Origin: a virus
Taxonomy: Duplodnaviria > Heunggongvirae > Uroviricota > Caudoviricetes
Length of the DNA: 64,000 nt
Direction: 5' to 3' (one strand)
IMG/VR virus record: IMGVR_UViG_3300049846_001486
Coordinates: 1 to 64,000 of that record
Each line of letters opens with the position of its first letter. Positions within the stretch are counted from its first letter, which is position 1. Below the pieces are notes generated by a model. It had not been told where the DNA came from, did not search any database, and saw nothing but the letters and a program-made list of their open reading frames with translations. Both the position numbers and the translations under genes were made by a program. Below, piece after piece: positions 1,043 to 60,750 of this stretch.

Positions 1043-1118
1043 TGGTCCTTCCGGTGGGACTCGAACCCACACACAGTATTTTAGAGACACCTGCTCTAAC
1101 CAATTGAGCTACGGAAGG
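1043..1118 (-). tRNA. tRNA with a CUA anticodon (putative amber/UAG suppressor tRNA)
   Basis: A 76-nt cloverleaf. Acceptor is CCTTCCG/CGGAAGG with A73 and CCA. D-arm is GCTC-AATTGGTTA-GAGC. Anticodon stem is GGTGT/ATACT with two G.U pairs, and the loop is C-U-CUA-A-A, so positions 34-36 read CUA. Variable loop is GTGT. T-arm GTGGG-TTCGAGT-CCCAC is identical to the neighbouring tRNA-like gene. Confidence 0.6.
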
Positions 1119-24839: not shown

Positions 24840-26537
24840 ATGTCTGATATATTTGACAAGATAAAGATAAGACAACAAGTAGAATTAGACAAAAAGCCAG
24901 ACTTCATAGCTAATTCGGCTCTTACTGTCGGTACTGTAGTTGATACGGATGACCCGTTACAGATGGGTCGTCTTCGTGTTTATTGTTCTTCGTTAAATGA
25001 TGACCCTGAAAAACTACATCATCTTCCTTGGGCAATTTATGTATCCCCTATCGGCGGAACAGTCAACAATTCTAAATTTACCAGAGGACATATATCTGGG
25101 CAAGAAACTACCGAAGGTTCCGTAGCTTACGGATGGTGGGGCATTCCTGAACAGGGAGCTAAGGTTCTTGTAGGATGTATTGATGGTGATATAAGAAAGA
25201 GATTCTGGGTTGGATGTGTTTATGACCAACAGGAAACACACACTCTTCTAAACGGAAGATTCGTTTGGGATAACGGCGAAGTTGACGGACCACTATCTTC
25301 AGAAAAGGAACCCATACAACCAACTTACGACAACATGACCAAAGCATTCGGAGATAGAAAATCTCCAGAATGGAAGACTAGAGGCGCTGAATATCAGGCT
25401 ACCTCTAATCGTGAAGACGAGAACCAGATACCTAATAGTGATAAGAGGAATCATGTTGACCAAATAAACGAATCTATAGTTGATAATGAAGATTTAGATT
25501 GGGTAAAATCGAAGTTAGGCGCACATGGTTACGATTGGACCAGCTTTAAGAGCTTAGGTTCGTTTCTAGCATCTAAGGTATTCGGCTTCGTATCTCCCGG
25601 ATTTCATTCAATATCGTTTGACGACAGACCGTTTAACTCTAGAGTAAAACTCAGAACGGCTGCCGGAAACCAGATAATCCTCGATGATACAAATGAGAGA
25701 ATTTACATAAGTACAGCAGAAGGTAATAGCTGGGCAGAAATGGACAAGAGCGGAAACATTGACCTATATGGTAAGAGAAGAATCTCCGTTCATGGCGAAA
25801 AGGATGTTAACATAACCTCCGACGAGACCGTAAGAATCCAAGGTAAGAAGGGAGTTAGTATATACGCAGGTAACACTACAGGTCAAACGCCACTAGGAGC
25901 AACCCCAGCAGATGGTCAGATAAGACTGCATTCCGCACATGACACTCATTTCTTTGTTGAAGGAGATTTAAAACATAGAGTTTTGGGAGATTTAAATCAC
26001 CAAGTAGATGGAAACTATTATATCTCCGCCGACCAGTTCGTTTTAGAAGCAAATAATATAAAGCAGTATGCTGATGATATCTTAATCAAAACGGATGGCG
26101 CTTTCTGGGAAGCAAACTCCGGTGGGGTGGATATCGGAGGAACTGCTGTTGAAATGTACGGAAATACGGTACAGGTTACGGGAAATACGACGCTAACATT
26201 ACAAGCCGTCACTTCGGTACAGTTGAAATCTTTGAGCATATCTTCTTCGGAGCCGTCTGTAGTCAGCCCTAAGAGTCTCACCTCACCTAGCGTATCTGCT
26301 CCAGATTCAAATGCCGAAATAGCTCCGTGGCCGAATAGAGTTCCAGACCATGAACCGTGGCCTAGAGTTTTGAAACAGGACTCAGGAGATGCCCAGAATA
26401 CTCAAAATACCGGATACTTAGATAATGTTGATTCTATAGACCAATTTGATAATACAACTAATCCTACTGGAATAAAACCGATAGGCGTGGTCGAAGGCGA
26501 CGAAACTATAGAACGCAATGATTATTGGAGAAGGTAA
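24840..26537 (+). CDS. 5: baseplate central spike protein (T4 gp5-like; no obvious lysozyme domain)
   Basis: N-terminal OB-fold motif VGTVVDTDDPLQMGRLRVY (G.V...DP...GR..V). C-terminal region has repetitive beta-helix-like segments. Sits in the gp53-gp5-gp25-gp6 order. Confidence 0.55.
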   Translation: MSDIFDKIKIRQQVELDKKPDFIANSALTVGTVVDTDDPLQMGRLRVYCSSLNDDPEKLHHLPWAIYVSPIGGTVNNSKFTRGHISGQETTEGSVAYGWWGIPEQGAKVLVGCIDGDIRKRFWVGCVYDQQETHTLLNGRFVWDNGEVDGPLSSEKEPIQPTYDNMTKAFGDRKSPEWKTRGAEYQATSNREDENQIPNSDKRNHVDQINESIVDNEDLDWVKSKLGAHGYDWTSFKSLGSFLASKVFGFVSPGFHSISFDDRPFNSRVKLRTAAGNQIILDDTNERIYISTAEGNSWAEMDKSGNIDLYGKRRISVHGEKDVNITSDETVRIQGKKGVSIYAGNTTGQTPLGATPADGQIRLHSAHDTHFFVEGDLKHRVLGDLNHQVDGNYYISADQFVLEANNIKQYADDILIKTDGAFWEANSGGVDIGGTAVEMYGNTVQVTGNTTLTLQAVTSVQLKSLSISSSEPSVVSPKSLTSPSVSAPDSNAEIAPWPNRVPDHEPWPRVLKQDSGDAQNTQNTGYLDNVDSIDQFDNTTNPTGIKPIGVVEGDETIERNDYWRR

Positions 26538-26567: not shown

Positions 26568-26936
26568 ATGGCACTATATAAAGGGTACTCTACTTATAAT
26601 TATGAGAAAAATAAGTCATTAGGATTGACCGATGTTGAATTGGTCAAACAGGACATATTGAACCATTTTTATACGAGATATGGCGAAAGATTAAAGATGG
26701 CCAGATTTGGTTGTATCGTGCCGGATATGGTATTCGAGCCTATGGAAGCCCAGAATTTGGCTGCTATAGAACTGGATATTTCTAAAGTTATGAATTACGA
26801 CCCTAGAATAAGAGTAAATTCTATAGTTTCTTCGCCTGATTATGATAATAGCACACTCACGGTTGAAGTAAATATAACTTATATAGAGTTGGATTTGAAT
26901 GACCTTTTACACCTTAACATTGAATTTGAAGGATAA
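26568..26936 (+). CDS. 25: baseplate wedge protein (gp25 / GPW family)
   Basis: 122 aa. ARFGCIVPDMVFEPMEAQNLAAIELDISKVMNYDPRIRV matches the conserved gp25/GPW core (FG..L..FEP....I......P.R..V). Confidence 0.7.
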   Translation: MALYKGYSTYNYEKNKSLGLTDVELVKQDILNHFYTRYGERLKMARFGCIVPDMVFEPMEAQNLAAIELDISKVMNYDPRIRVNSIVSSPDYDNSTLTVEVNITYIELDLNDLLHLNIEFEG

Positions 26937-26941
26937 TTGAA

Positions 26942-29842
26942 ATGAGAAGTACGAATAAAGCAGAAAGTTGGAAGAAAGTATACGAAGCGTTCCAACAAGT
27001 TAATTTCGCTGCTTGGGATTTCGAAACAGTAAAACAGTCATTACTTGACTATTTAAAACTTTACTTCCCAGAAGACTTCAACGACTTCATAGAATCAAGC
27101 GAATTGATTATGAATTTGGAAATGTTCGCCTATTCGGTAGAGTTGATAGCCTACCGCTTGGACATGAACGCCCATGAAAACTTCATTTCTACAGCAGAAA
27201 GAAAAGAATCAATTTTAAGACTTGCCAAGCTCCTATCGTATAATCCGTCTAGAAACATCCCGGCCAGAGGATTGGTAAAGATAACTTCTATATCTTCTAC
27301 GGAAAGAATTTTCGACTCTCGCGGCGTTGACTTATCCAACAAAATTATCGTATGGAACGACCCAAATAACAGCAACTGGAAAGAACAGTTTTTGATTGTG
27401 TTGGGTAGAGTATTAGAGCAACCATTCGGTTCCGTTGCCCCAGATGATAGAATCCAAGTACAGGATGTTTTGTTCGAATTGTATGGCCTAAACAATAACC
27501 CATTAGCTTCGCAGACCCTAAAATATTCAGTCTCTGTTTCTGATGTTACCTATCCTATGGAATTGGTCAGCGTAGAACTAAATGATTTTGGCCCTATCGA
27601 AAAGAGACCAGAAAAGAACCAAAAAATTAACATCCTTTATCTAAACGATGGTCTTGGCGATTCTTCAGAAAATACAGGATTTTTCTTTTACACTAAGCAG
27701 GGTGAATTACAAAAAATTACCCAAGAGTATGATGGTGTTACCGCCAACCAATACACGGACATATTAGTTGATAACATCAACGAAACTGATGTATGGTTGA
27801 ATAATGTTGATTCTGTTACCGGAGAAATCATAACTGGCGACGATGTTAGAGTCAATTTTAGACAAGGTGAATGGGAGAGAGTGGATGTTGCCAATGCCAA
27901 AAACATCATATTCAACACTAACAAGAACAGAAACAAATATGAAATCGAGACTTTAGCGAATGATAATATGCGTGTTATTTTCGGTGATGGTAAGTTTGCT
28001 AATATCCCATCCGGCACATTCGACTTATGGTTTAGAGTTTCCGCAAACCAAGATTTAGTTATACCAGTAAGTGCGATTCAGAACACAAATACCGCGTTAA
28101 ATTACTACGACGCTAACAATAAAGAACAAACCTTATCTCTATCCTTCAGCTTGACCAATTCTATACAAAATGCAGCCCCATCTGAAGACGGCAATCACAT
28201 TAGACGAGTAGCCCCATCTGTTTACTATACTCAAGACAGAATGGTAAACGGCAAAGACTATAATGAATTCTTGCTACAAGACAATACCATTTTGAAGATA
28301 AACGCTATAAACAGAACCTTTGCTGGAGATTCCAAATATATCGCATGGCACGACCCTGAAGAGTATTACGATAATGTGAAGGTTTTCGGTGATGATTTGG
28401 TCATGTATTACCAAACCAAAGATATAACCACATCTGCCGCAGCGTCGGATGTTCCTAATGAAGACGGCGGAGCAAATGTTGCGTTAATTGATGCTATAGT
28501 TGATAACTATATAACTCCAATTTTAGAAACTGAACAGATGTATTTGAGATTCATCATATCAGGAGTTGACCCTACTCTTGTAAGAAAACAATTTACCAAT
28601 GGTGAACGCACTTTATTGGAAATCTTGTTGTTAGCTTTGATTACCAACAAACCGGGCAGCTTCTATATGACTTATACTCAAGCTACAGATGCTTGGACAT
28701 TCGATAGCACAGAACCGGCAGATTGGTGGATTACTGTAACTATGAATGCTGATGGAAGTTGGGATTTCTTGAATAGAGGCAAAACTCTTATCGCTCATAG
28801 TGACGCTACGGATTTCTGGGTATCCAACAAAAACCAAACAATAAACTACGATACATCCATCGTAGGCTTTGATGAAATAGTCATCTTGAAGGCTAACTTG
28901 GATGTTAACGATGCCGTGCTTACTGAAAACAAACGCTTCGTAGCGTATAAGCAAGATACAGTAGTAGCCGGTCCTGATGCTGGAACAGAAAGCAAAAGTG
29001 ATTTAGTCGTATTGCCTATTGACGAGAATTCTGACGGAATTCCGGATGATGTGTCGTTGTCGTATTTGATAGACCCATTAACCGATTTCGTATATTTCCA
29101 GAGAGAATTGTATGATACTGGCGATTATGGGCCGTGGGAATTCAGAGAGGCCACGACAGAAAATGTAGCAGCCTATACCCAAGATGCGGCAGATGAAACG
29201 GGACTGTGGAAGAGAGAAGTAGGCAGAGAAGGATTGAATTTCTTGTGGTTGCATAAAACACCAAGATATCATCTGGTTGACCCGGCATCTTCTAACTTGA
29301 TTGATATATTCCTAATCACTAGAGGATATTACAATAACATTAGATTGTGGTTGGCCGATAAGTTGGACGGTGAACCGGAACGCCCATCTGCTTTCGATTT
29401 GAGAGAGTCTTATAATTATTTGTTGGATAATAAGATGATTTCCGACTCTGTTATATTACATACTGGAAAAATAAAGATAATTATAGGAAAACACGCGCCG
29501 GAAGCCTATAGAGCTAAATTAAAGATAATTAAATCTTCGTATTCAACATTGACGAATAACCAAATCAAGTCAATAATCGTGGACGCTTTTAGAGAATTCT
29601 TTGACATAAATTATTGGGAATTCGGAGAAACTTTCTATTTTACTGAATTGTCAACATTTATTCAGTCTAAACTCCCAGCAGACATTGATTCTATCGTAAT
29701 TGTTCCTACAAGCACCGGAAGTATATTCGGTAACTTGTTCGAAATCAAAGCGGCAGCGGATGAGATTATACAAGGCAGCATCGCTCCTACCGATATTGAA
29801 ATCATTCAAGCTCTAGATTCCGACACACTAAAAGTTGGTTAA
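26942..29842 (+). CDS. 6: baseplate wedge protein (gp6 / baseplate-J-like), 966 aa
   Basis: Assigned by conserved order directly after gp25 and by large size. No motif verified. Confidence 0.45.
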   Translation: MRSTNKAESWKKVYEAFQQVNFAAWDFETVKQSLLDYLKLYFPEDFNDFIESSELIMNLEMFAYSVELIAYRLDMNAHENFISTAERKESILRLAKLLSYNPSRNIPARGLVKITSISSTERIFDSRGVDLSNKIIVWNDPNNSNWKEQFLIVLGRVLEQPFGSVAPDDRIQVQDVLFELYGLNNNPLASQTLKYSVSVSDVTYPMELVSVELNDFGPIEKRPEKNQKINILYLNDGLGDSSENTGFFFYTKQGELQKITQEYDGVTANQYTDILVDNINETDVWLNNVDSVTGEIITGDDVRVNFRQGEWERVDVANAKNIIFNTNKNRNKYEIETLANDNMRVIFGDGKFANIPSGTFDLWFRVSANQDLVIPVSAIQNTNTALNYYDANNKEQTLSLSFSLTNSIQNAAPSEDGNHIRRVAPSVYYTQDRMVNGKDYNEFLLQDNTILKINAINRTFAGDSKYIAWHDPEEYYDNVKVFGDDLVMYYQTKDITTSAAASDVPNEDGGANVALIDAIVDNYITPILETEQMYLRFIISGVDPTLVRKQFTNGERTLLEILLLALITNKPGSFYMTYTQATDAWTFDSTEPADWWITVTMNADGSWDFLNRGKTLIAHSDATDFWVSNKNQTINYDTSIVGFDEIVILKANLDVNDAVLTENKRFVAYKQDTVVAGPDAGTESKSDLVVLPIDENSDGIPDDVSLSYLIDPLTDFVYFQRELYDTGDYGPWEFREATTENVAAYTQDAADETGLWKREVGREGLNFLWLHKTPRYHLVDPASSNLIDIFLITRGYYNNIRLWLADKLDGEPERPSAFDLRESYNYLLDNKMISDSVILHTGKIKIIIGKHAPEAYRAKLKIIKSSYSTLTNNQIKSIIVDAFREFFDINYWEFGETFYFTELSTFIQSKLPADIDSIVIVPTSTGSIFGNLFEIKAAADEIIQGSIAPTDIEIIQALDSDTLKVG

Positions 29843-29902: not shown

Positions 29903-32900
29903 GTGAGCAAATCTGATTATACCAAAAAGAGTTTCAATTTTAATGACTACTTACCGGGCAACCTAAGAACTGCCATCGCTAATAGTCTTAACGATAACCT
30001 ATATAATCGTTTTTATAGCAAAGACGAGTATCAGCATGTAATCGGCGTCATAGGTACTCCAAACCCAACAGATGCCTCCCAGCGTCAAATTATAGAAGCA
30101 ACTGAATATCGTCAGAATAATCAATTACAGCCCGTAATAACCGCCCAAATTGGTGCAACTAAGTACCATATGACTTTTGAGGATATGCTCAATAAGTTGG
30201 AAACATTAGGGGTGGATATTTCTCAATACCCACAATGGGGAAACTCTCTACACTTTAATTGGGTTCCGCCTATTGATTTAGACAAACTAATCAATTATCA
30301 GAACTATTTCTGGGTAACAGATGATACCCAAGATAAACCACAATACATCACTATAAAGAATCATTGTAATTGGGTCTTGGCTAGATTGCGCCAAATTAAG
30401 AAATCTGTAGCAGGAATTTATGAAAACTTTACTATAGATTCTATGGATTTAGGCACCAATGAAATAATCATCCTCGGCAATAAGCTTTCTAAATTTAGTG
30501 TTGGTGAATTTTTAGTATTGTGGAACACAGAAAAGACCTATGAAGTTTTCGAAATAACTGGAACTTCCTATAATTCTGCAACAGAAGAAACTAGAATACA
30601 ATTCAATACCGCTCTTCCAGCAGATGTTACCTTTACCTCCGCCGCTAAAACGCAACAGGACATAAAGACCACCGACGCATTCAATAACTATTTCGTGTTA
30701 GACGGTGACGCTACAGCGTTGTTCAAACAAGGGTATGTTTTCATAACACAGGGCAGCGACTTATTGCCCAGCACATATTGGAAAGTAGATAAATCCGAAT
30801 ACATCGCTCAGGGTGAAACCACTCGCATTTATCCAACCTTAGATATTCCAGCCAACGCAGACTGGACCATTATAAATTCCCTACCATTAATTGTTATGGC
30901 CGAGGCCGAGTACAAAGTAGCTTGTGAAGACTCTAGTTTAGACTACATACAAAACTGGGCAGACTTCAGAGTTGGAGACATAATCTGGCACAAATATTAC
31001 ACGGTCATAGGGCAACAGACTACGGGACAAACCACATTAGGCTCTAATGTGTTTACTGACCCTACCACAAATTTCACGGATATGGGAGTCGTTGCCGGGA
31101 ATATTTTGAGAATCACTTCGGGACATAAAGTTGGAGATTTTCCAATCGTTGATGTTTTGGATTATGATTTAACATTGTCGGATGCTGATGTATTCTTTAC
31201 TCAAACTGGCGTAACTTACGAAATAGTAAAAGAATTAGCTATTGATGATTTTAGGTCTGAAGAAGAACCAACTTCTCCGGCAGTATACGACTATTGGTTC
31301 GATACGATTAACGATAATTTAAATCAATGGAACGGATTAAGTTGGGTAACCAGACAGGGCAATTTCAGTTTAATTTTGGATTTGACAAACGACAGACATA
31401 CCTTAGATATCCTTCAAACGGATGATTGGTCTACCCAGAATAAGTGGATACACAGAAACGATGTTGGAGCCGTGTCGGGTAAAACTAGAGCGCAGCTACC
31501 AATCATAGAGTTCAACCCTTTCTTAGAAATGGCAACTACTTCCTATGTTAAGAAAGCTTGGAGATATAGAAAAACTGCATCTGCCGGGTACGCCTCGGTT
31601 GATGAACAACCAACATTGATGGAATTGATTCTTGTTGATGATTTTTCTTTCTTGGATGCTTCAACAATAATTTTCCACGAAAAATACGGTAACCTCACTT
31701 CCGATATAGTTGCTGGAGTTAAGCTAAAAATAGTAAACTCTTCTTTGGGTGAAAATAACGGAGAATACGAAGTAGCATCTTCTGAATATGTGCAGTTATT
31801 TCCTACAGAAAGATATGTCAGTAAAGTAACTTTAACTACCACAGTTCCTAATCCTCTAAACAGTACGGGAAACATAATTCCATCTAAAACTGCGGTCGGA
31901 GATTTGTTCTTGGGTATAGACCAACAACAATGGATGTTTGACGGTATAGAAGAAATCGTCCCATCCAGTAAAAAACCAACAGCAAATCCCATGTTATCCA
32001 TATTCGTTTCGTCTGATACTGACGGAACTTTAGATACTTTGTTGGGTATGGTTTGGCAGGAATTTAAATACAATACTACTACCGAAGAAGTAGGTCCAAC
32101 ATTTACTTTAGATGATTCATTACATGATTTGTGTCTTTTTGAAGATTACCAAGAAGGTGATTTGCGTGTCTATATAAATGGTGTAAGACAGTATGGTAAT
32201 TTTACAGAAGCTCGTTCCGGATTGAATCAGGAATATGTAGGTTCTATAACCTTCAATGATACGGTAACCATAACAGACAGCGATGTTGTTAGAATTGAAT
32301 TAGGGGAAGCATATTCTCTGGATATAGGCAGAAGAAGTGTACAAATAAACACTCCTACTACATTCGATGAAAAGTTCAACTTGGTAAATTACAAAAAGAC
32401 TGAACAGATAAAATTGGATACTAATGAATATCCATATTTCTGTATTTTTGATATATTCGGAACGGCTTTGGATTTCGCTTCCAAAATTTTTAGCTTCAAG
32501 GAAAATTCAGAAAATGAAATCAATCCTCATGTATCTAGAAGATTAGACTACAACGAAACTACCAGAGATTATACATTCGTACAAGGATTGTTGGGTGAGT
32601 CCCAAGAATTATACCAATATAAAGATTATCAAAAGATTGCTAACGAATTACAGTCTGTGTGGAAGGCTGGAGAAAATCTAGAACAGTTCGTGCCTTACAA
32701 AGAAAACGATGCTTGGGTAATCCCACAACAGCTATATTACAATGTTAAACACGAAAACAGAGAAGAAGTAAAATTAACTGAAATCTTCACCCATTTCAGA
32801 AACATAATAGAAAATCAGACCGCTCCATCAATATACAGTCTGACCGGAAACCTATATTACATTGATGATAATGTCAATTACGGTATAGGCGGCACTATTA

Positions 32901-35900
32901 AAGAATACAACGACAATTTCTCCACATTAGTTTCTTCGCTATTTGTGAATAATGTAAACCCGATTTCCGTAATACAGTTTGCACATAATCAGTATTTGAG
33001 TAATCTCGAATACATTAAGAATACATTAAGAACCAATATATCTTCGTTATTGTTGAATACTGAAGCTGAAGATTTAACAGAATTGACTAATTACATAATA
33101 GTCTCAGTAAAGGAACAATTTGAGGGTAATGACAGATTGGATTTGTGGTTCGGGGATAGCACAACTTATAACGAGCTTACCAAAACCGGTATTAAAAACT
33201 GGATAGCCACATTGCCTTATTTCGGATTAGTACCGAAAGTAGCTCCGTATTACATAAAAGACTCAGTTCTCGGAATTTCCGAAATGGTTCACCATGACGG
33301 TCACAGAACCCAGTTGGCTTATGATATAGCAATCAAAGAATTGATAATTAAGAACATAATAGACAATTCTAACAATGAACAGCAGATTGTAACTTCAGAT
33401 TCTGAACCATTACCAGTATTGATTAATGGCAATACTGCTAAAGACAATGATTATGTAATCAGAACAAACACTACTACTAAGACCAGAAAAGTCTATCGTT
33501 ATAGCGTAGCTAATTCTTGGGAATTAGTAGATTTCGATGATATATTGTTGAAGACTATATTGTTCATAGAACAGAAGCTTTATGAGAATTGCCCGACCAG
33601 AGTATTCTTAAATTTCAACATGGATTCGGTGAGATTGAATACTGCTTATCAAGATTTGGTAAAACAGCAGTTCTCCACATATTTGAAGAACAATCAAATA
33701 AAAACGCCTTATGACAACAAAGAATATAAGACTAACGACCCATTTACATGGAACTACGGATATACAACTATATCCACTCATCCGATGACCGGGTTGCCAT
33801 CGTCAGATGTTAAAGCAACATGGCAAGCATTATACGAAAAGGTATATGGAACTCCATACCCACATTTAGAGCCTTGGGTATTGCAGGGATATAGAATCAA
33901 ACCAGATTGGTGGGATTCTTATTATTTGAATACTAATCCATTGGTTGATAGACTATGGAAATCAACGATGTGGAACAATATATTCAATGGTATCGTACCT
34001 TTAAACAAAGATACACCTACTGGTGCCGCAGGTACAGGCGCTGCCGGTCAATTGACCGAAGTGTTCGATTTCGTATCTGTCAATGTTGATGATACTCCTA
34101 CATTAGACGGAATCAAACCCGATGGTTTGTTACCACCGTATTGGAATACCAACAATACTACCGACCCTAGAGTAAGGTCGCTATATGACGCTTCCATTCA
34201 AGAATACATAACTAATCCACAAACTGGTTATGAATTTACGCAGAGAGGCCCAAGTGAATGGAAATGGGAAGTGTCTGCCCAGCGTCTTTACGATGATGCC
34301 ATAATCGCTTTCAAACTTCAACCAATGCGCTTCATGAACCAATTATTCGGCAACTCTTTCCAAAATGTTGCCGCATTGCAAGTGGAGACGACAAACCAAA
34401 GAGTCTTCACCCCGGAATTAACCATATTCCACGGTGATTTGATTGGTGACACAAATGTAGTTTACAAAACCAATGGATTGAACCAATGGTATGTTCACTA
34501 TAACCGTTATAACGGATTCGATGGACTGTCTTCGGAATTCAGAACCTTATGGAAGAATTGGGATGTTAAATTGGGTTATGCGGTCGGCGGATTTATTGAT
34601 ACCTCAAGTTTGAGTATTTTCAACAACACTTTCGACTTAAGCACTAAAGATTACACCGTTGATATTAAGAAAACTCATGGAATATCTAACAAATGGTTGG
34701 ATTCCTTGACTTTGACCTCGTTGAGCGTACCATCCAAAACAGCAAAATATAGAGATTCTGGATTGGGATGGACAGTAGAAATTGACACCAATTCTATTTA
34801 CGGAAAGCCTGTAGAATACTATCAACCTCAGAAATACCAATTTAAGGTATTGGACGATAATGAAACTTTCAGAAGCTTTGCTTACGATATAAGCGGAGCA
34901 GACATTTCCCAAGTCCAAGGGTATCAATTAGTCAATTATAATCAGTCTTCTTACAATCAATTAGAAACAGATTTGGATAATACATTCTTCTTGTATTATG
35001 CCGATGTTTTGGTTGATAATACCACAACAATAAATTTGGCCATATATGGTGCAAATGCTCAGACCTTCGCAGAAGCTATAACAGAAATCAACGCCCAATT
35101 GGGTGACTATGCTATAGCTTATATTCAAGAAGGTAATATCATAATCAAGAGCAAGACTATAGGCATAACCTCGGCTATAGAAATAACTGATGCGGGATTG
35201 TTCGCATCGTTAGATACAGAAAAATTCTCTGGATTGGACGCTCCACAACAAACGCAGTTGAAGTTCAACGGACGCTTTTATGTTGATGGAAACATCATGT
35301 CTGTGATGGAAGCCGGGAACGAAATTACAGTTTCTGATTCTACCAATTTGAACGGAACTTACACCATCAGAGATGTGTATTTCGACATAGTAACAGGAAA
35401 GACAATAATCAGCATATCTGAAGATATAGTCATTTCCGATTCTACGATAGATGGTGAAATTTATTTGGTAGGAGAAACTACCTTAAATTCTTTCCCAGAT
35501 GAATGGGTTGACGGAACTCAAGTTACTCTAACTACGACCCAAGTAGCGCCATCCGGAATGACGGAAGATGCAGTATACTACTTCAAGAAATTAACCAATA
35601 CGGATTTCGCATTGTATACTGATTCTAGCTTAACTAACCAAGTAACAGTAAACAGTTCTGGCTCAGGCCAGCACAGTATTGGGGTTGTTGTAGGAACCTT
35701 CAAAGCTCTCAATGGAAGCGCCACTCAAACATCGTGGAAGAAATATAAGTTCGATAAGAGACAGACTAATAAAATATATCCGCCAATTTATGTATCTACC
35801 ATACAGAGTATAATTGATTTGATTTTGGGATACGGAGAATATGCTACTGATATCGGATTCTTATTAAAGACAGAAGGCCGTAACAATATTGATGAACAGA

Positions 35901-38900
35901 CCGGAAGATATAACTCATGGCAGTTAGAAACAGAAAAGGTAATAAACTGGTTATACAATTTAAGAAAGACAAACCAGCAATACATGCCTTCATATGAAGC
36001 TACCGTAAATGTTGCCACAAGCTCATTTGTAATGACAGACGCGGTTACTACTACATGGAAATCTGGAACCAAAGTTAAATTACTAACAGACGGTGGTACA
36101 TTACCAGAGCCGTTCGACAACCCATTGAAGGGGTATGTCCCATATTACATAATAAAGACCGCTGACCCGAAGATTGTACAGTTGGCGGCAACTAAAGAAG
36201 ACGCCAAGAATGGTGTTGCTATAACTGTATTGACTCCGGGAGAAGGCAATGTAATCCTACAATTATTGTCAGATACCCAGCCGGTCTATGATTACGAAAT
36301 CAACCCTTTCAAAAATTACATTTGGGTAACAAATGAATATGGCGTTTTGGCTGATGTATTCTCTGGAGTGTCTAAACTAGATACGCCTACATATCAGATA
36401 ATATATGACAATAACGGAAATGAATTAAACAACAACAATCTTATAATCTTAAGACATGATAAAGAAAGCAGATTAAGCTTGACCTTAAATCAGCAAGAGA
36501 GAAACAAGCAGATAAGTTCCGGTACCCAAAAAGGTACAGTCAGTTATATGTCCGGTATGCATCTATTCTATGATGGCTATGAGCATATAGTGTTGTTCAA
36601 TGATTATTCCATTTCTGACACACTCATCTACGATTCATTCTTAGGATTGAACACTCCGCGCTTCTTCGTGGAATTCAACAGACAAAAGAATTTCACTTTA
36701 AGACCAAATGTTGGAGGATATGTAATATCTGATGATGAGCTTGTCCAGAATATAGAATCTTCCGTTGACGATATGAGAAATTACTACGATACCGAGAGAA
36801 CCATAGAAGGTAAACAGACCACACAATTGGTAAGAAAGACCTTGGGCTATGATGGTCCTAAACAGTATATGGACGACTTAAACATAAGTGACAAATCTCA
36901 GTTCAAATTCTGGAAAGGAATGATACAAAAGAAAGGTACGAACTTTGCAATATCTGCCTTTACAAACCAAGATGTTTATGATGATGCCAACATTGACGAA
37001 TTCTGGGCATATAAGCTTGCCGAATTCGGCACTTCCAAAGCTAAAGATTATTTCGAAATGAAGGTATCTCCTAATGATTCTACAAGAAAAGAATTGAGAT
37101 TGGAGTTCGTAGCAACCGATAGTTCTCCTACCGACCCATCATGTCAAGCTGTAGAATTGACGGATTTGAGCCGTTGGGAAAATCAACCGGATGCATTAGC
37201 AGCTATGAACCCTTACAAGTCCTTCTTCTTTAACTACAAAGTCGTAGAACTTATAGATAATGCCGAGAGTGAAATAACAACAGTAAATGGTAGATATGTA
37301 TTAGAACTTTCTGAAGTTAACGATGGTGTAATAATCACTTACTACGATACCGGCGATGATTTAAGAAAGACATTGGTTAAGGGTATAGATTTTGAATTAC
37401 TTTCTCACAAAGTAGTACACTTTACTACGCCATATAACCCTTCTACCCTTCAGGCTATTAAAGTCTACGGCGTTTCTTATGATTATGAAGGACATACTCC
37501 TGTAAAATTAATAGATAAGAAGACCAAATCAACGGTATTGAATCTTCCAGTATGGAACCCGCTAAAACAAGAATACTACGCTAATGCTTATGCTGTAGTT
37601 GATATTAGAGCAGCCCAAGACCCTGCTGATTATACTAATTATCCAACTAGCGCCACTCCGGTTACCAACAATTCTTACTGGACAGAAAAGCAAGTAGGCA
37701 AAGTGTGGTTCGATTCTTCGATTGAGGGATATATGCCTTACAACGACACTTCCATATATCCTAAGTTAAATGACAGAATGTTGCTATGGGGTAAATTGGC
37801 AGAATGGGCCGATATCAACTTATATACTTGGGTAGAATCAGAAGTCCCTCCATCTGAATGGGATGCTGCTGCCGCTTCACAAGACGGAGACTATACAGTA
37901 GATTCTAAGTTCAAGAAATCCGGTACGGTAAAGAAGCGTCTTTATGAGAATACCGGGTCTCCATCTGTTCCTGTATGGCAAGAAATACAAGACCAACACG
38001 AAGAATTTGTTGCAGGTTTGGTGACTTTGAGTAACACAACGGCGTTCACAGGAAATGTTGAATACTACATTAATGGTGAGTATACGCAGACCGCCGCAAT
38101 TACAGGAGCTTCCTTCGTAACATATGCTGCCGGATTGGACCCTCAGACCATAATACATCTTGTTAAAAAGGCCGTAGTTCCTACCCAGCAACAAATAGAC
38201 GATTTAGAATACAAATACGACACCCCGTACACTTCGTTAACCAAGATTAACAAAGAAAGTGGACTACCATATCAAGTGTATTATTTCTGGGTCAATGGGT
38301 ACGACTTCGACAAGGCTACCACAGAAAAGAAAATAAATGTTCTTCATGCTGAGAAACTTTTCAAGAATATGTCCGACCCATATTGCGTAATACAGAATTT
38401 AACATCTTCTGATATCGGATATGGATTAGTGTTTGGTAATAACTTTGATGACGAGGGCGATTCTTCGTTGCCTTGGAGATACACACAATGCATCATTAAA
38501 GGTCTAGAAGGTAAAATTAAAGATAAGGATAGATATGTTCTTAAGTTCTTAAGAGACTTTTCTTTGAGGACCAACTTAGCTTCTACTGACCTTACATATA
38601 AAAACAAGCATACCGAATGGAAGTTGTTCAGAGAAAAACAGACTTCTAAGATTGATGAAGCGTTATGGAACAAAATAGTAGAGGGTATGGCAGAATATGC
38701 TGTAGTCAACAGAGTAGTTGATACTACCACACCTGCCCCGGACTATAACAGAAAACTGTTCGATGATTTATATGATTCAGATACCAGTTTTGGTATACAG
38801 GACGGTATGGTTCTAGTTGATAAACAGACCGGTCTAAACACTATAAATAAATTGTTGAACAGCACCGAGAAACAATATTCTCAAAATATAACTGATTTCT

Positions 38901-41900
38901 TGGAACAATATGATTTCGAATCCCCGGAAAATATTGTAGAAGCCATGTATCAGATTTATGATACTTTCAGTATAGATGATGTAAATTATATATTCTTTAA
39001 CATGCTTATGGACTATTTTAGTTTGAAGAAAGAGAGCAAAGACATATTCAAGACTTCTTGGGTAGCGTTGCAAGTTTCTCAAAATATAAAACCGTATACG
39101 GATTCTCAAACAGACACTATTAAATTGGAAGCTGGCGGTAAAGCCTTCTTCGGTGAATTGTCTTCTGCGGAAGCAATAGATGTTCTTCCAATTACGGACT
39201 ATCTATTGTATTTGTTGAGCGACGGAACAATCGTATATTCACTACACGACGGTTTCACGGAAACTATTGTATTAGCCCAGAACCCGCCAAGAATAGCAGG
39301 TAGCGGAGCAAGAACCGATGTATGGACAGACGGAACCTACATTTATACCACAAGTATCAACGGTGGTTTGGATGTGTACTACTATAATGGTACAAATTTC
39401 ATATTGATTGGTGGCAATACAACTCCGGGTAACCACTATGGCGTAGTAGGATTTAACCCAATCTTGGTAGTATCCGATACCGGAGAAGGCTTGATTGCTT
39501 ATGAATTTGACGGTATAGAATTAGTCAAAATAGCAACCTGTGGAGATGTTACGACCAATGTTAAAGCAGTATGCATTCATAATGGATACATAGCAACTTG
39601 TGGATATGATAGGGTTGATATTTGGCAATATACCGGATACTCATTACACCATGTAACTTTCTTACAGGGTCTGACTGGCGGTGCGGATGTTATATCCATC
39701 GCATCTGACGGCGAATATCTGTACACGGGAAGCAACAATACAACAAAGGTGCAGGTATTCTCATTTGATGGCAGCATAATCCAACAAGTGTATACTGACC
39801 CTACCATAAATTCTTCTCCGGCAATAGCCGCTGGTGGCGGTAATGTATTCTATGGTGGTATAGGTTTGAAGGTGTATAGATTTAATGGCTCGTCTTTGGT
39901 ATTACAAGATTCTATTGATGGGGTAGTTATTGACGGGTCGTTGATGTATTCTCATGATTCCAAGAGACTATATTCTTCAGATTTAGGAGTTTTTAATTTC
40001 ACTACTGGCCGCTTAGAACAGATAACAGATGTTCCTGTTCCAGTATCTCAGTTAAATTCTGGTGATGTAAGTTTGGCTGGAGCTATAAATTTACCTAAAC
40101 CAAGTCCAACTCCAACTAGAACAGTAACACCTACTATTACCGTATCTCCGACAGTTACCCCAACGAATACCCCAACTAATACAGTAACTCCTACCAATAC
40201 TAGAACAGCTAGCACAACCCCTACACCAACTAATACGACGACCCCAACGACTACCCCGACCCCAACGGTTACCCAAACAGCATCCGTGACACCAACTCCA
40301 TCAATAACCCCAACATCTACACCAACGGCAACTGTAACTCCAACTAACACGCCGACTAATACTCAAACCGCAACTCCAACGAATACGGTAACCCCAACGA
40401 ATACTCCAACGGCTACTTCAACAGTAACTCCAACGAATACGGTAACCCCAACTTACACAGTAACTCCAACGAATACACCAACCGCGTCTGTTACCCCAAC
40501 AATAACTCCAACCAACACGGTTACCCCAACTAATACTGTAACTCCTACTAATACTGTAACCCCGACAGTCACTTCTACAGCCACAGTAACCCCCACGACA
40601 GCCGCAAGCCCTACTGTTACCCCAACTAATACACCGACTGCATCGGTTACTCCTACTGTTACCCCAACTAATACACCGACTGCATCGGTTACTCCTACTT
40701 CAACAGTAACTCCAACGAATACGGTTACTCCGTCGAATACTGTAACCCCAACGAATACCCCAACGGTTACCCCTACTTCAACTGTTACCCCAACTAACAC
40801 AGTTACCCCAACAAATACCGTTACACCAACGAATACCCCAACAAACACGGTTACCCCAACGAATACTGTTACTCCAACGAATACCCCAACAAACACGGTT
40901 ACCCCAACGAATACTGTTACTCCAACTAACACCGTTACTCCAACGAATACGATAACCCCAACCAATACTCCAACGAATACAGTAACTCCAACTAACACCG
41001 TTACTCCAACGAATACCCCAACATCAAGTGTAACTCCGACTGTAACCCCTACAAGTACGGTTACCCCAACGAATACTGTTACTCCAACGAATACCGTTAC
41101 ACCAACCAATACTCCAACAAGTTCATTAACCCCTACGGTCACTCCAACGAATACCGTTACTCCAACGAATACGGCTACTCCGACTTATACTCCTACTTCA
41201 ACCGTCACTCCAACAAACACGGTTACCCCAACAAATACACCGACAGCATCAGTTACCCCAACGAATACTGTAACTCCAACGAATACCGTTACTCCAACAA
41301 ACACGGTTACCCCAACGAATACGGCAACGGCATCAGTTACGCCGACTAATACTCCAACTAATACAGTAACTCCTACTAACACAGGAACGCCCGGAGCCAC
41401 ACCGACTGTAACGCCGACAAACACCCCAACCGTTACCCCAACAAATACTATTACTCCAACTTATACTATTACCCCAACAAATACCCCAACCCCAACGAAT
41501 ACCCCAACGAATACTGTAACTCCAACTAATACAGTTACCCCAACAAATACACCGACAGCATCAGTTACCCCAACGAATACCCCAACAAATACCGTTACCC
41601 CAACGAACACAGTTACCCCAACAAATACACCGACAGCATCAGTTACCCCAACGAATACCCCAACAAATACTGTAACTCCAACTAATACCGCAACACCAAC
41701 GAATACAGCCACATCTACAGTAACCCCAACGGCATCTGTTACTCCTTCGGTAACTCCAACAAATACAGTAACTCCAACAAATACCGTTACCCCAACGAAT
41801 ACGGCTACACCAACTATAACACCTACAGTAACCCCAACTAACACAGTTACCCCGACTTATACGGTTACCCCAACGAATACAGTAACTTCGTCCATTACTC

Positions 41901-43276
41901 CAACGGCAACGGTCACCCCTACGGTAACCCCAACTAACACAGTTACCCCGACTTATACGGTCACCCCAACGAATACTGTTACTCCAACAGTTACTCCTAC
42001 ACCTTCTGTAACCCCAACAGAAACACCAACGAATACACCAACTCCGACGAATACTGTTACCCCAACAAATACTCCAACGGCTTCGTTGACTCCAACTAAT
42101 ACTCCAACCAACACGGTTACCCCAACTAATACTGTAACCCCAACGAATACCGCAACCGCATCTGTTACCCCAACGAATACCCCAACCAATACCTTTACTC
42201 CAACAAATACGGTAACACCAACTTATACAGTAACACCTACCTTTACGCCTACTGCTTCTGAAACACCAACGAATACACCAACGAATACTGTTACTCCGAC
42301 GAATACATTAACTCCTACTGTAACACCAACCCCTTCGGTTACTCCAACAGAAAGTCCTACTAATACTGTTACCCCAACTAATACGGTAACACCGACTTAT
42401 ACAGTTACTCCAACGAATACTCCTACTTCAACAGTAACTCCAACTAACACCGTTACCCCGACGAATACTGAGACCCCAACGGTAACTCCGACCGTTACAC
42501 CAACGAATACGCCAACAGTAACACCTACAAGCACGATAACTCCAACGAATACTCCAACAACAACGCCAACAAATACATTAACTCCGACGAATACAGCAAC
42601 CCCAACGATAACTCCGACGAGGACACCAACTACTACTAGAACTCCAACTAGAACTCCAACTATAACTCCAACAAATACAGCGACCCCAACGGTTACACCA
42701 ACCTTTACACCAACAAACACCGTTACGCCAACAATCACACCAACAGTCACACCAACAAGTACGGTTACACCAACCTTTACACCAACAAACACCGTTACGC
42801 CAACAATCACACCAACAGTCACACCAACAAGTACGGTTACACCAACAGTCACACCAACAGTCACACCAACGAATACGGCAACTCCAACCGTAACCCCAAC
42901 CGTTACTCCAACGAATACGGTAACTCCAACCCGTACAGTAACTCCGTCTCCAGCACCTCTAACTGTGTCTGTTGCCGATGCCGGAAATGATGCTTATACT
43001 TCATGTTCGACAGCCGTATGTGGCGGTTCATGTACTTCGAGCGACACAATAACTGCAACTCCTTCTGGGGGAACAGCGCCATATTCTTATTCTTGGACTA
43101 AAACTGCTGGTGTTGGTGCTATAACTTCTGGTTCAACATCAGCTACTTGTACGGTGTCTAGAACTGCCGGTGCTTCTATATTAACTGGTACATTTAAATG
43201 TACGGTTACGGATAATGTTGGCGGTTCGGCAAATGCAAGCATAGTAATGACCTTTGAACACGCTGACGGATGTTAA
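29903..43276 (+). CDS. giant baseplate-associated structural/adhesin protein (4457 aa): large N-terminal body (gp7 position), beta-propeller-like repeats, a roughly 950-aa Thr/Pro hexapeptide-repeat mucin-like domain, and a C-terminal Cys-containing Ig/SprB-repeat-like domain
   Basis: A single uninterrupted frame of 13.4 kb with a GTG start and GGAAG RBS, sitting where gp7 sits in T4 (after gp6). Residues about 3400-4350 are TPTNTV-type repeats. The final roughly 105 aa contain four Cys and a [10 protein letters not shown]-type motif. Confidence 0.7.
40100..42950 (+). repeat. coding tandem repeat of about 2.85 kb with an 18-nt period encoding (T-P-T-N-T-V)n and variants
   Basis: Roughly 150 imperfect copies of ACnCCAACGAATACnGTn. 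The reverse strand therefore yields artefactual VGVTV ORFs in the six-frame track. Confidence 0.9.
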
Positions 43277-43298
43277 TAAATAATAAAAGAGATTCAAA

Positions 43299-44081
43299 AT
43301 GGCCGAGTTCAGTAACAAAAATTTAAAGAATTATTTCTACATGGAACAATTCAGAAAAGCCATAGTACAGACTATGGCTGTATTTTCTGGATTAAAGGTT
43401 GCTATTGGAAAAAACGATAACGATACTGGCGATATAAACTATATTAATGTTCCAATTAAATACGGTTCAGCCGATAGAGTTGTAGCAGCAATTAAAGCGG
43501 AGAATACCCAAAATGCCGCCATTCGAGTCCCAATGTTGGCATTAAAGGTGACTAATATAGATTTGGCCGAAGGCGAAAGAAAGGGCACCAATCAAAAAAT
43601 AAAGACAAAATACCTTCCGTTTGGTGGAAAGATGCCTGATGATTTAGTAATAGCAGAAATGCTAGTACCATACCCATATAGAATGGTTTGCGAACTTGCT
43701 ATATTGGCCTCTAATACTCACCAACATTTTCAAATGTTGGAACAAATATTAATGTTATTTGACCCGACCCTACAAATACAAACTTCAGACGACCCATTAG
43801 ACCATACGAAAATTAAGAATTTGAAATTGGAATCTATAGGATTTGATGAAAATTATCCATCCGGCACGGAAAGAAGATTAATAGTTACCAATATAACAAT
43901 AGAGGTTATAATTTATCTGACAGCCCCGGTTCAATTTAGAAAAGATTACATCAAATCCGTAGTTTTAAGAATGAATTCTATTAGTGATTCAGGGACAGCT
44001 TATGAAGCGGTTTCGGCTCTCAATAACGAAACTGGCGAAAAAATAATAGATATTGAAGATTTGGATATACCCGAATCTTAA
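43299..44081 (+). CDS. tail completion / sheath stabiliser candidate (gp15-like position)
   Basis: 260-aa ORF immediately upstream of the tail sheath gene, with an ATAAATAA motif upstream. Assigned by position. Confidence 0.3.
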   Translation: MAEFSNKNLKNYFYMEQFRKAIVQTMAVFSGLKVAIGKNDNDTGDINYINVPIKYGSADRVVAAIKAENTQNAAIRVPMLALKVTNIDLAEGERKGTNQKIKTKYLPFGGKMPDDLVIAEMLVPYPYRMVCELAILASNTHQHFQMLEQILMLFDPTLQIQTSDDPLDHTKIKNLKLESIGFDENYPSGTERRLIVTNITIEVIIYLTAPVQFRKDYIKSVVLRMNSISDSGTAYEAVSALNNETGEKIIDIEDLDIPES

Positions 44082-60747: not shown

Positions 60748-60750
60748 TAA

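What the first reader, a model, noticed from the sequence alone, without database searches (positions are those of the whole stretch)
29903..43276. 4457-aa giant ORF at the gp7 position of the baseplate module
A single 13.4 kb reading frame follows gp53/gp5/gp25/gp6-like genes in T4 order, which suggests a baseplate-wedge (gp7-like) protein fused to an enormous distal extension. The extension is a beta-propeller-like repeat region (about 39100-40090), then a roughly 950-aa Thr/Pro repeat linker, then a Cys-containing Ig-like cap. That is the architecture of a cell-surface adhesin or mucin, not of a typical T4 wedge protein. It is probably a host-recognition fibre anchored in the baseplate.
Basis: partly seen in the sequence, partly recalled or inferred. 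Interest (0 to 1): 0.85.

Follow-up and report, generated by a model that had tools for sequence, protein, structure and literature searches.

The report
Giant jumbo-phage baseplate-module protein with tethered adhesin
The 4457-residue gene is real and belongs to a widespread but uncharacterised family of roughly 3000-residue virion proteins encoded next to the baseplate wedge genes of jumbo phages; here it carries an unusually long, lineage-specific tail (a beta-propeller, a 950-residue Thr/Pro tether and an Ig-like tip) that most likely works as a surface-binding line, and it shows no detectable relationship to T4 gp7.

Summary
The ORF (29903-43276, +, GTG start, TAA stop, 4457 aa, 492 kDa) is confirmed, and so are the gp5-, gp25- and gp6-like genes upstream and the gp15, sheath and tube genes downstream. 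The window comes from an unsequenced jumbo myophage of the XacN1 clade.

Residues 1-3078 are not an extension. They are the conserved body of a large family: 404 clusters at 50% identity, mostly 2500-4300 aa. It includes XacN1 ORF325, CBB gp236, Atu_ph07 gp180 (4449 aa) and RsoM2USA ORF361. The gene lies next to, or one gene from, a gp6-like gene. Mass spectrometry found family proteins in CBB and RsoM2USA virions.

Similarity to T4 gp7 was tested by pairwise, profile and fold comparison (confident AF2 model of residues 1-1200) and was not found. "gp7-like" therefore holds only as a statement of gene position.

The last 1379 aa are lineage-specific:
- a 950-aa strictly alternating (Thr-x)n Thr/Pro linker;
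- a PKD/Ig-like tip.

Close relatives carry LamG, discoidin or other propeller modules on similar linkers at the same site.

Best reading: a baseplate-associated giant scaffold with a swappable, tethered binding module. It is a new variant of a known but uncharacterised kind, of moderate interest.

The parts
29903..43276 (+). Giant ORF: 4457 aa, 491.6 kDa, GTG start, TAA stop.
29903..39136 (+). Conserved family core, aa 1-3078. It is colinear with XacN1 ORF325 and matches phrog_10938 'virion structural protein'.
   Evidence: BLASTP gives 41.5% identity over 3109 columns. Four segments hit phrog_10938. 404 cluster representatives were found.
29903..30412 (+). N-terminal block, aa 1-170. It is highly conserved, yet residues 1-90 have low confidence in the monomer model. 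Inferred to be the docking segment that folds on a partner such as the gp6-like wedge protein.
   Evidence: Nearly invariant residues include G48, G51, E65, Q74, W112, P122, P123, Y135, W137 and Y148. pLDDT is 38-70 for residues 1-90. It is one of the few blocks still detected in distant members P0153 and P0154.
29903..33502 (+). Modelled region, aa 1-1200: mostly a string of small beta-barrel and beta-sandwich domains plus a helical segment at aa ~1006-1081.
39137..39307 (+). Low-confidence spacer between the end of the core and the propeller, aa 3079-3135.
   Evidence: pLDDT 25-38.
39308..40021 (+). Seven-bladed beta-propeller, aa ~3136-3373.
40094..42943 (+). Thr/Pro linker, aa 3398-4347 (950 aa). 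It alternates strictly as (Thr-x)n. Units: TPTNTV x44, TPTN x29, TPTV x20. It is almost uncharged.
   Evidence: GC skew of -0.53 in this region.
42944..43273 (+). C-terminal PKD/Ig-like domain with 6 Cys, aa 4348-4457.
   Evidence: Pfam K319L-like PKD 28.9 bits (cutoff 27) and SprB 27.7 bits (cutoff 28). Weak PHROG Hoc-like hits. phmmer matches PDB decoration-protein chains 8zvi_a and 5lxk_A at E 2.5e-4 to 4.4e-4.
26942..29842 (+). gp6-like baseplate wedge gene directly upstream (966 aa). Its homologue at the same position next to P0008 is recorded as Pfam DUF8360.
   Evidence: phrog_10646 at E 2.8e-292 and phrog_219. Same neighbour in L001, L003, L004 and L005.
26568..26936 (+). gp25-like baseplate wedge gene.
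   Evidence: phrog_261 at E 8e-19 and phrog_43.
24840..26537 (+). gp5-like hub/spike gene.
   Evidence: Pfam Phage_base_V 41 bits. phrog_13211 and phrog_430.
43299..44081 (+). gp15-like tail sheath stabiliser gene directly downstream.
   Evidence: Pfam T4-gp15_tss 125.6 bits.

Best explanation
The gene encodes this phage's copy of the conserved 'largest structural protein' of the Rak2 / Atu_ph07 / XacN1 supergroup of jumbo myophages.

Shown:
- Residues 1-3078 are a colinear family core. It is rich in small beta-barrel and beta-sandwich domains of the kind seen in phage tail, baseplate and tailspike proteins.
- The gene lies next to, or one gene from, the gp25-like and gp6-like wedge genes in every locus examined.
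- Family proteins are physical components of purified virions in two phages shown here to carry a homologue (CBB, RsoM2USA).

Inferred:
- The strongly conserved N-terminal ~170 residues are poorly ordered in a monomer model. They probably fold onto the wedge (the gp6-like and gp25-like proteins). That would place one copy per wedge, six per virion, in the slot that gp7 fills in T4.
- The 350-kDa body then builds the periphery of the large baseplate.

In the XacN1-like clade only, a variable C-terminal tail has been added to this body. Here the tail is a 7-bladed beta-propeller, then a 950-residue uncharged (Thr-x)n Thr/Pro linker, then a disulfide-capable PKD/Ig-like domain. From my own figure of about 0.31 nm per residue for a polyproline-II chain, the linker could reach up to ~300 nm when extended and would sit at tens of nm as a coil.

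The most likely mechanism is a tethered, low-affinity glycan or surface binder. It sweeps a large volume around the baseplate and makes the first reversible contact with the host envelope, or with a polysaccharide matrix. That contact raises the chance that the baseplate proper engages. The tail's module content is swapped between lineages as host surfaces change.
For: Family and colinearity.

Conserved position beside the gp25-like and gp6-like genes: the window, XacN1, the P0008 contig, CBB and Atu_ph07. In P0064 and P0154 the gene lies within one gene of the gp6-like gene.

Virion presence of homologues by mass spectrometry:
- CBB_236, 21 peptides (PMC5259590).
- RsoM2USA ORF361 (PMC8504454).
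- phAPEC6 gp245, 382 kDa, listed next to baseplate wedge protein gp244, 17 peptides (PMC7247149). Its homology to this family was not tested here; it is taken to be the equivalent protein from its size and position.

The tail is an add-on: 90 of 112 representatives end at the core boundary, and tails of 4-1211 aa occur only in the closest clade.

Module swapping on T/P/S linkers:
- P0008: the same propeller plus Laminin_G_3.
- P0017: F5/8 type C plus Laminin_G_3.
- P0127: a YVTN-like propeller.
- P0011 and P0018: linker only.

The propeller, linker and Ig-like domain were each verified.

The XacN1 paper reports no visible tail fibres and no tail-fibre homologues (PMC5852040). That leaves this protein as a candidate receptor binder in that clade.
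Against: - No member of the family has been located in a virion structure. The baseplate placement rests on gene neighbourhood alone.
- No similarity to gp7, TssG or any other wedge protein was found, by sequence or by fold, for residues 1-1200.
- In two distant relatives another gene sits between the gp6-like gene and the giant gene: gp15 in one, a 1026-aa repeat protein in the other.
- RsoM2USA has 70-nm tail fibres as well as a family member, so the protein does not generally replace fibres.
- Nothing shows what the propeller or the Ig-like domain binds.
- Residues 1201-3058 were not modelled.
Confidence: 0.5

Rival explanations
1. The protein is a virion component but not a baseplate wedge or arm subunit. 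Instead it forms, or anchors, flexible 'hairs' or whiskers elsewhere on the particle (sheath rings, collar or capsid), like those seen on CBB and phAPEC6. The Thr/Pro tail would be the hair.
For: CBB and phAPEC6 carry unassigned hairy fibres on the tail and capsid, and both have a giant protein of this kind in the virion. PHROGs files the family under 'head and packaging' / virion structural protein. The C-terminal Ig-like domain resembles capsid decoration proteins: Hoc-like PHROGs and PDB decoration-protein chains.
Against: CBB-type members end at the core boundary and have no Thr/Pro tail, so the hairs of those phages cannot be this tail. The gene is linked to the gp25-like and gp6-like genes across very distant lineages. 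The PHROG category is only an annotation label. In phAPEC6 the peptide count is modest for the size of the protein (17 peptides, 7.6% coverage). That hints at few copies per particle, but it is not a copy-number measurement.
Confidence: 0.17
2. The protein is a true, extremely diverged orthologue of T4 gp7 / TssG. Its N-terminus would form the (gp6)2-gp7 core bundle and trifurcation unit, and everything else would be an elaborated 'wing'.
For: It occupies the gene position after the gp6-like gene. No other gp7 candidate was recognised in the module. The N-terminal ~170 aa are conserved, contain helices at 24-38, 92-101, 106-112 and 154-172, and have low monomer confidence. Even T4 gp6 against this window's clear gp6 homologue scores only E 0.0055, so a gp7 signal could be beyond detection.
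Confidence: 0.2
3. The extreme length is partly an artefact. Misassembly or expansion within the Thr/Pro repeat, or a missed frameshift, has fused or inflated the ORF.
For: The repeat covers 2.85 kb of low-complexity DNA with strong skew. No identical protein is on record in the public collection that was queried.
Against: The frame is open throughout. The repeat units are degenerate and the longest exact repeat is 86 nt. The Ig-like domain after the repeat is in frame and intact. Relatives have the same design: P0008 has the propeller, a ~500-aa linker and LamG in 4309 aa, and Atu_ph07 gp180 has 4449 aa.
Confidence: 0.05
4. The protein is a tail tape-measure protein or an internal ejected protein, not an external structure.
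For: It is the largest gene of a myophage tail module. Tape-measure genes are often the largest tail genes (my own knowledge).
Against: The modelled 1200 aa are mostly beta-strand, not the long helices of tape measures. At about 0.15 nm per residue (my own knowledge of tape measures) the 3078-aa core alone would specify a tail of about 460 nm, whereas the RsoM2USA tail is 125 nm. The lectin-type and Ig-like end modules and the 950-aa linker do not fit a protein held inside the tube.
Confidence: 0.03

Closest known systems
Xanthomonas phage XacN1 ORF325 (BBA65473.1, 3313 aa, 'hypothetical protein'), with its homologues in Xoo-sp13, Stenotrophomonas phages CM1 and RAS14, and Ralstonia phage RsoM2USA ORF361
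   Same: It aligns colinearly over aa 4-3078 at 41.5% identity. It has the same gp25-like and gp6-like genes upstream. It has a short PT-linker tail after the same core boundary. RsoM2USA ORF361 was found in virions by mass spectrometry.
   Different: The XacN1 tail is ~235 aa. It consists of short PT linkers, Cys-bracketed acidic repeats and an unrelated end domain, with no Pfam hit. The window protein has a 1379-aa tail with a propeller, a 950-aa Thr/Pro linker and a PKD/Ig-like domain.
The 'largest structural protein' of Rak2-like and Atu_ph07-like jumbo phages: CBB gp236 (3340 aa) and Atu_ph07 gp180 (4449 aa), with phAPEC6 gp245 (382 kDa) as the likely equivalent
   Same: CBB and Atu_ph07 belong to the same family at low identity: 23-34% in the most conserved block. 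In both, the gene follows the gp6-like wedge gene. CBB_236 is a proven virion component. phAPEC6 gp245 is also a proven virion component listed next to baseplate wedge protein gp244, but its homology to this family was not tested here.
   Different: Most distant family representatives end at the core boundary without a Thr/Pro tail. Whether CBB gp236 does so was not checked individually. The extra length of Atu_ph07 gp180 was not dissected here.
T4 gp7 (baseplate wedge initiator, 1032 aa)
   Same: It has the same gene position after gene 6 and is part of the same module. It may be a functional analogue as the wedge subunit that reaches to the baseplate periphery; this is inference.
   Different: No sequence or fold similarity was detected. 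The window protein is 3-4 times larger. gp7 homologues are confined to Straboviridae.
Ig-like decoration and adherence domains of phages (T4 Hoc, T5 pb10), and cell-surface proteins that pair a YVTN propeller with PKD domains (archaeal S-layer protein, PDB 1l0q)
   Different: Here the Ig-like domain is not a capsid decoration. It sits at the end of a 950-aa tether on a protein encoded in the baseplate module.
Pro/Thr 'PT-box' linkers of bacterial cellulases, and mucin-like domains
   Same: The composition is Thr- and Pro-rich, nearly uncharged and repetitive. The linker joins globular binding modules, as in relatives that carry LamG or discoidin modules.
   Different: The linker is 950 aa long, against tens of residues in enzyme linkers (my own knowledge). 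It alternates strictly as Thr-x, with Asn and Val. Glycosylation is unknown.

Membership tests
T4 gp7 baseplate wedge protein family | Detectable sequence similarity to gp7 (pairwise, HMM or profile-profile). | tested here: not met
   BLASTP and phmmer found nothing better than E 0.9. No gp7-type PHROG, Pfam or NCBIfam hit was found. The family profile against T4 gp7 gave probability 0.2%. A five-sequence gp7 profile against the family profile gave probability 0.4%. Caveat: the gp6 control is itself weak, at E 0.0055.
T4 gp7 baseplate wedge protein family | Fold similarity to gp7, or to the gp7/TssG-type core-bundle and trifurcation region. | tested here: not met
T4 gp7 baseplate wedge protein family | Gene immediately downstream of the gp6 homologue in the baseplate module. 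| tested here: met
   True in the window, XacN1, the P0008 contig, CBB and Atu_ph07. One gene intervenes in each of two distant relatives.
T4 gp7 baseplate wedge protein family | Forms the (gp6)2-gp7 heterotrimer of the wedge. | not testable with these tools
   Needs multimer prediction or cryo-EM. Only single-chain prediction of window sequences was available.
Giant virion structural protein family of Rak2 / Atu_ph07 / XacN1-type jumbo phages (phrog_10938) | Colinear similarity over the ~3000-aa core. | tested here: met
   Four segments hit phrog_10938 in order, at E 1e-15 to 1e-26. The protein is 41.5% identical to XacN1 ORF325 over 3109 columns. 404 representatives were found, 222 of them at E < 1e-30. 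The family HMM aligns colinearly with P0064 and P0154.
Giant virion structural protein family of Rak2 / Atu_ph07 / XacN1-type jumbo phages (phrog_10938) | Encoded next to the gp25-like and gp6-like (DUF8360) wedge genes. | tested here: met
Giant virion structural protein family of Rak2 / Atu_ph07 / XacN1-type jumbo phages (phrog_10938) | Present in purified virions. | not testable with these tools
   Shown by mass spectrometry for CBB_236 and RsoM2USA ORF361, and for the likely equivalent phAPEC6 gp245. Not known for this phage.
Seven-bladed beta-propeller (WD40 / YVTN / YncE-like fold) | Propeller fold of ~40-45-residue four-stranded blades. | tested here: met
Seven-bladed beta-propeller (WD40 / YVTN / YncE-like fold) | Match to a curated Pfam propeller family above its threshold. 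| tested here: not met
   Only sub-threshold hits at E 0.02-0.07 to three propeller families. The fold is a propeller, but the domain belongs to no curated sequence family.
PKD / Ig-like domain | Pfam match above the gathering score. | tested here: met
   K319L-like_PKD scores 28.9 bits against a cutoff of 27. SprB scores 27.7 against 28, just below. phmmer matches Ig-like decoration-protein and CAR Ig chains in the PDB at E 2.5e-4 to 6e-3.
Mucin-like / PT-box linker | Long, Thr/Pro-dominated, low-charge repeat. | tested here: met
   950 aa with 47.7% Thr, 19.4% Pro and 11 charged residues.
Mucin-like / PT-box linker | Dense O-glycosylation. | not testable with these tools
   Needs glycoproteomics. 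A glycosyltransferase gene lies at 59368-60747, but no link to this protein has been shown.
Tail tape-measure protein | Predominantly long alpha-helical protein whose length scales with the tail. | tested here: not met
   The model of aa 1-1200 is mostly beta-strand. The implied tail length would be far greater than that of relatives.

The most novel reading that the evidence does not exclude
In the XacN1-like jumbo phages, where EM showed no tail fibres and no fibre genes were found in XacN1, this single ~0.5-MDa chain may be an all-in-one replacement for the T4 gp7-gp12 periphery plus the fibres. In that case six copies would build the outer baseplate. Each would cast a mucin-like line of up to ~0.3 um, possibly glycosylated by phage-encoded transferases, ending in an exchangeable lectin or Ig module. 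That module would be the primary receptor-binding device and its engagement would trigger contraction.
Probability: 0.2. Interest if true: 0.7.

Novelty: new variant of a known kind. Interest (0 to 1): 0.42.

Why it matters
The family is the largest gene of many jumbo phages and is a proven virion component, yet it has no assigned function or location. This analysis establishes several points:
- The family has a fixed ~3080-aa core.
- The gene is tightly linked to the gp25-like and gp6-like wedge genes across very distant lineages.
- The first 1200 residues show no fold relationship to T4 gp7.
- One clade has turned the C-terminus into a plug-in site for lectin-type, propeller and Ig modules on Thr/Pro tethers. 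This window holds the longest such tail seen among the 112 representatives examined.

Together these give concrete, testable targets for host-range determinants in a group of phages that includes biocontrol candidates against Xanthomonas, Ralstonia and Stenotrophomonas. They also bear on how the oversized baseplates of jumbo phages are built without recognisable gp7-gp12 homologues.

Tried and rejected
- Megablast of 7 kb against 50,697 phage records found no match, so the phage is not closely related to any sequenced isolate.
- The word-indexed protein search timed out on the 3398-aa query. With 1200 aa, with an alignment and with the propeller it returned only 4, 6 and 0 hits. The exhaustive HMMER search was what revealed the family.
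- phmmer and profile searches of the PDB sequences with the core found nothing.
- T4 gp6-gp14 were each compared with the giant and with its family profile, and a gp7 profile was compared with the family profile. No signal was found. The idea that the core is a concatenation of gp7-gp12 homologues therefore has no support.
- NCBIfam gave no hits.
- Exact-sequence look-ups of the giant and of the gp6-like protein in public assemblies found no record.
- The T4 late-promoter motif TATAAATA is not enriched: 5 matches against 7.3 expected.
- I tested whether the 1026-aa gene between the gp6-like gene and the giant gene in a distant relative (L011) corresponds to the giant's N-terminus, which would make the giant a fusion. 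It does not. It has no similarity to the window or to gp7 and looks like a secreted repeat protein.
- I tested for TAG recoding, prompted by a CUA-anticodon tRNA. There are no in-frame TAG codons inside long genes.


Full report
**1. The observation**

The window contains one uninterrupted frame from 29903 to 43276 on the + strand. It encodes 4457 codons, with a GTG start and a TAA stop, and the product has a calculated mass of 491.6 kDa. The start is credible because homologues begin at the same place with the same motif: XacN1 ORF325 also starts at GTG, and the family consensus is 'MxxSDYxK..LP'.

The gene neighbourhood is a T4-type tail module:
- a gp26-type hub gene (20886-21785, - strand);
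- a 118-aa 'baseplate wedge subunit' ORF (22656-23012);
- a 606-aa ORF of unknown function;
- a gp5-like gene (24840-26537);
- a gp25-like gene (26568-26936);
- a gp6-like gene (26942-29842);
- the giant ORF;
- then gp15-like, sheath and tube genes.

One qualification applies: the order is only approximately that of T4, where gene 25 lies elsewhere.

**2. What genome this is**

Megablast finds nothing among 50,697 phage records. At the protein level the closest isolates are Xanthomonas phages XacN1 and Xoo-sp13, Stenotrophomonas phages CM1 and RAS14, and Ralstonia phage RsoM2USA. Identity is about 38% for the giant's N-terminus and about 55% for the sheath. The window therefore comes from an undescribed jumbo myophage of the XacN1 clade.

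**3. The giant protein is a member of a large family with a fixed core**

Four consecutive segments hit PHROG 10938 in colinear order. That PHROG is labelled 'virion structural protein' and its profile has 3324 positions. XacN1 ORF325 (3313 aa) is annotated 'hypothetical protein' and lies directly after that phage's gp25-like and gp6-like genes. It aligns with residues 4-3078 at 41.5% identity in one block.

An exhaustive HMMER search with residues 1-1200 against 1.84 billion cluster representatives found 404 proteins at E <= 0.001 and 222 at E < 1e-30. Most are 2500-4300 aa long.

Among isolates the family also includes CBB gp236 (3340 aa), Atu_ph07 gp180 (4449 aa), and proteins of SCTP-2, Phosso, fHe-Yen9-04, XaC1 and EJP2. 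The size of the ORF is therefore not unprecedented.

The position next to the wedge genes is kept in the window, XacN1, the contig carrying P0008, CBB and Atu_ph07. Two distant relatives have one gene in between: gp15 in one and a 1026-aa repeat protein in the other.

Published mass spectrometry detected family proteins in purified virions: CBB_236 (21 peptides; PMC5259590) and RsoM2USA ORF361 (PMC8504454). phAPEC6 gp245 (382 kDa, listed next to baseplate wedge gp244, 17 peptides; PMC7247149) is probably the equivalent protein, judged by size and position. Its homology was not tested here. None of these papers assigns the protein a function or a location.

**4. Is it gp7-like?**

Only by position. 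The following tests found no similarity:
- BLASTP and phmmer against T4 gp53, gp5, gp6-gp15 and wac;
- hhalign of a 26-sequence family profile against each T4 protein;
- hhalign of a five-sequence gp7 profile against the family profile, best probability 0.4%;
- Pfam, PHROGs and NCBIfam scans;
- phmmer and hmmsearch against all PDB sequences.

The sequence tests are weak in this lineage. Even T4 gp6 against the window's unmistakable gp6 homologue reaches only E 0.0055.

I therefore modelled residues 1-1200 with a 41-sequence alignment, which gave mean pLDDT 86.6 and pTM 0.76. The model is mostly a string of small beta domains, with one helical segment at aa ~1006-1081.
- Foldseek against the PDB gave only loose matches to multi-domain beta proteins, including phage tail-tip proteins (TM < 0.1).
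- No gp7, TssG or other wedge chain is listed.

Membership in the gp7 family is therefore not supported for the part that was tested.

A gp7-like role remains possible. The first ~170 residues are among the most conserved of the protein and are still recognisable in the most distant members. Yet residues 1-90 have low confidence in the monomer model. That combination is what one expects of a segment that folds only on a partner. This step is inference.

**5. The extension**

I anchored 112 representatives on the last conserved block ('...FKTSWVA', window aa ~3078). In 90 of them the protein ends there. Only the closest clade has tails, of 4-1211 aa. The window's tail is 1379 aa (140.7 kDa), the longest in that set. 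It has four parts:
- A low-confidence spacer (aa 3079-3135).
- A 950-residue linker (aa 3398-4347): 47.7% Thr, 19.4% Pro, 11% Val and 10% Asn, with only 11 charged residues. It alternates strictly as Thr-x and is built from [10 protein letters not shown] and TPTV units in irregular order. The DNA repeat units are degenerate and the longest exact repeat is 86 nt. This argues against collapse or expansion artefacts but does not prove the copy number.
- A 110-residue end domain with six Cys. It passes the Pfam threshold for a PKD-type Ig-like domain (28.9 against 27 bits). It also matches phage decoration-protein chains and CAR Ig chains in the PDB at E 2.5e-4 to 6e-3.

**6. What the relatives' tails say**

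- P0008 (4309 aa, same synteny) has the same propeller (39% identity), a ~500-aa T/P/S linker, a Laminin_G_3 domain (79.5 bits) and a further module.
- P0007 has the same propeller.
- P0017 has F5/8 type C and Laminin_G_3 domains separated by PT linkers.
- P0127 has a different, YVTN-like propeller.
- P0011 and P0018 have a linker only.
- XacN1 has short PT linkers with Cys-bracketed acidic repeats and an unrelated end domain.

The C-terminus of the core in this clade is thus a site where ligand-binding modules typical of carbohydrate recognition and cell adhesion are exchanged on flexible tethers. That is the pattern expected of a host- or surface-recognition element. The XacN1 authors saw no tail fibres and found no fibre genes (PMC5852040). 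This makes the protein a candidate receptor binder there, although RsoM2USA has both fibres and a family member.

**7. Mechanism proposed**

Shown:
- The protein belongs to a giant virion-protein family.
- The gene is linked to the wedge genes.
- The domain anatomy of the tail is as described above.
- Modules are swapped in relatives.

Inferred:
- The N-terminus docks on the gp6-like and gp25-like wedge.
- There are six copies per baseplate.
- The 350-kDa body builds the baseplate periphery.
- The Thr/Pro segment acts as a long flexible tether. It would reach about 295 nm as a polyproline-II chain (using my own figure of 0.31 nm per residue) and far less as a coil.
- The tether presents the Ig-like tip, and nearer the baseplate the propeller, for first reversible contact with host surface glycans or a surrounding matrix.

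**8. Rivals**

- A hair or whisker elsewhere on the particle. This is unlikely because the hairy phages' family members lack the tail, and because of the synteny.
- A true but unrecognisable gp7 orthologue. This is compatible with the best explanation as to role, but all tests were negative.
- An assembly artefact, which is unlikely.
- A tape measure, which the beta-rich model and the protein's length exclude.

**9. Verdict**

The object is a new variant, through an exceptional C-terminal tether architecture, of a known but uncharacterised family. It is not a T4 gp7 with an appendage. Interest is moderate. The family is familiar to people who annotate jumbo phages, but its role is open. The fixed core with a plug-in tail found here gives a clear experimental handle on it.

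Noticed in passing
window 1043-1118 (-): A tRNA with anticodon CUA (ARAGORN calls it tRNA-Pyl), which would read the amber codon like a suppressor. No long ORF in the window has an in-frame TAG inside it, and only 4 of 39 ORFs end in TAG. Any recoding must therefore act elsewhere in the genome, or the tRNA has another role.
   Followed up: partly
window 49042-49512 (+): An ORF with a TnsA-like endonuclease N-terminal domain (Pfam 78 bits) sits between the tail tube gene and the DNA polymerase region. It looks like a selfish or homing-type insertion.
   Followed up: no
window 59368-63120 (+); L001 26176-26844 and 31407-32991: A glycosyltransferase and a Nol-like carbamoyltransferase lie side by side. 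XacN1 also encodes a GT9 glycosyltransferase and a carbamoyltransferase a few kb downstream of its giant gene. A link to modification of the Thr-rich tail is conceivable but untested.
   Followed up: no
window 40453-41142 (-) and 42397-42864 (-); composition 40001-44000: Two antisense 'ORFs' (229 and 155 aa) lie wholly inside the Thr/Pro repeat. They are by-products of its low complexity. The repeat also produces the strongest compositional anomaly of the window, with GC skew -0.53 and AT skew +0.31.
   Followed up: partly
L011 4817-7897: In a distant relative on a 233-kb contig, a 1026-aa protein sits between the gp6-like gene and the giant gene. It has a signal-peptide-like N-terminus and ~50-aa tandem repeats. 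It is followed after the giant gene by a 1668-aa protein with CBM_5_12, YHYH and Laminin_G_3 domains. It has no similarity to the window or to T4 gp7.
   Followed up: partly
L001 14986-24927 (XacN1 ORF325 C-terminus); P0014 C-terminus: The tails of XacN1 ORF325 and of P0014 contain a duplicated, Cys-bracketed, highly acidic motif ('...DDR(I/V)(L/T)EDGEGRITEDG(Q/E)CRIVEP') between PT linkers. It has no Pfam match and may be a small metal-binding or disulfide-loop module.
   Followed up: no
window 23016-24836 (+) and 8987-11722 (+): A 606-aa ORF lies directly upstream of the gp5-like gene. Its position suggests a gp27-type hub protein. A 911-aa ORF lies upstream of the portal gene. Neither has any Pfam or PHROG match; the 606-aa ORF also has no significant NCBIfam match (the 911-aa ORF was not scanned there).
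   Followed up: partly
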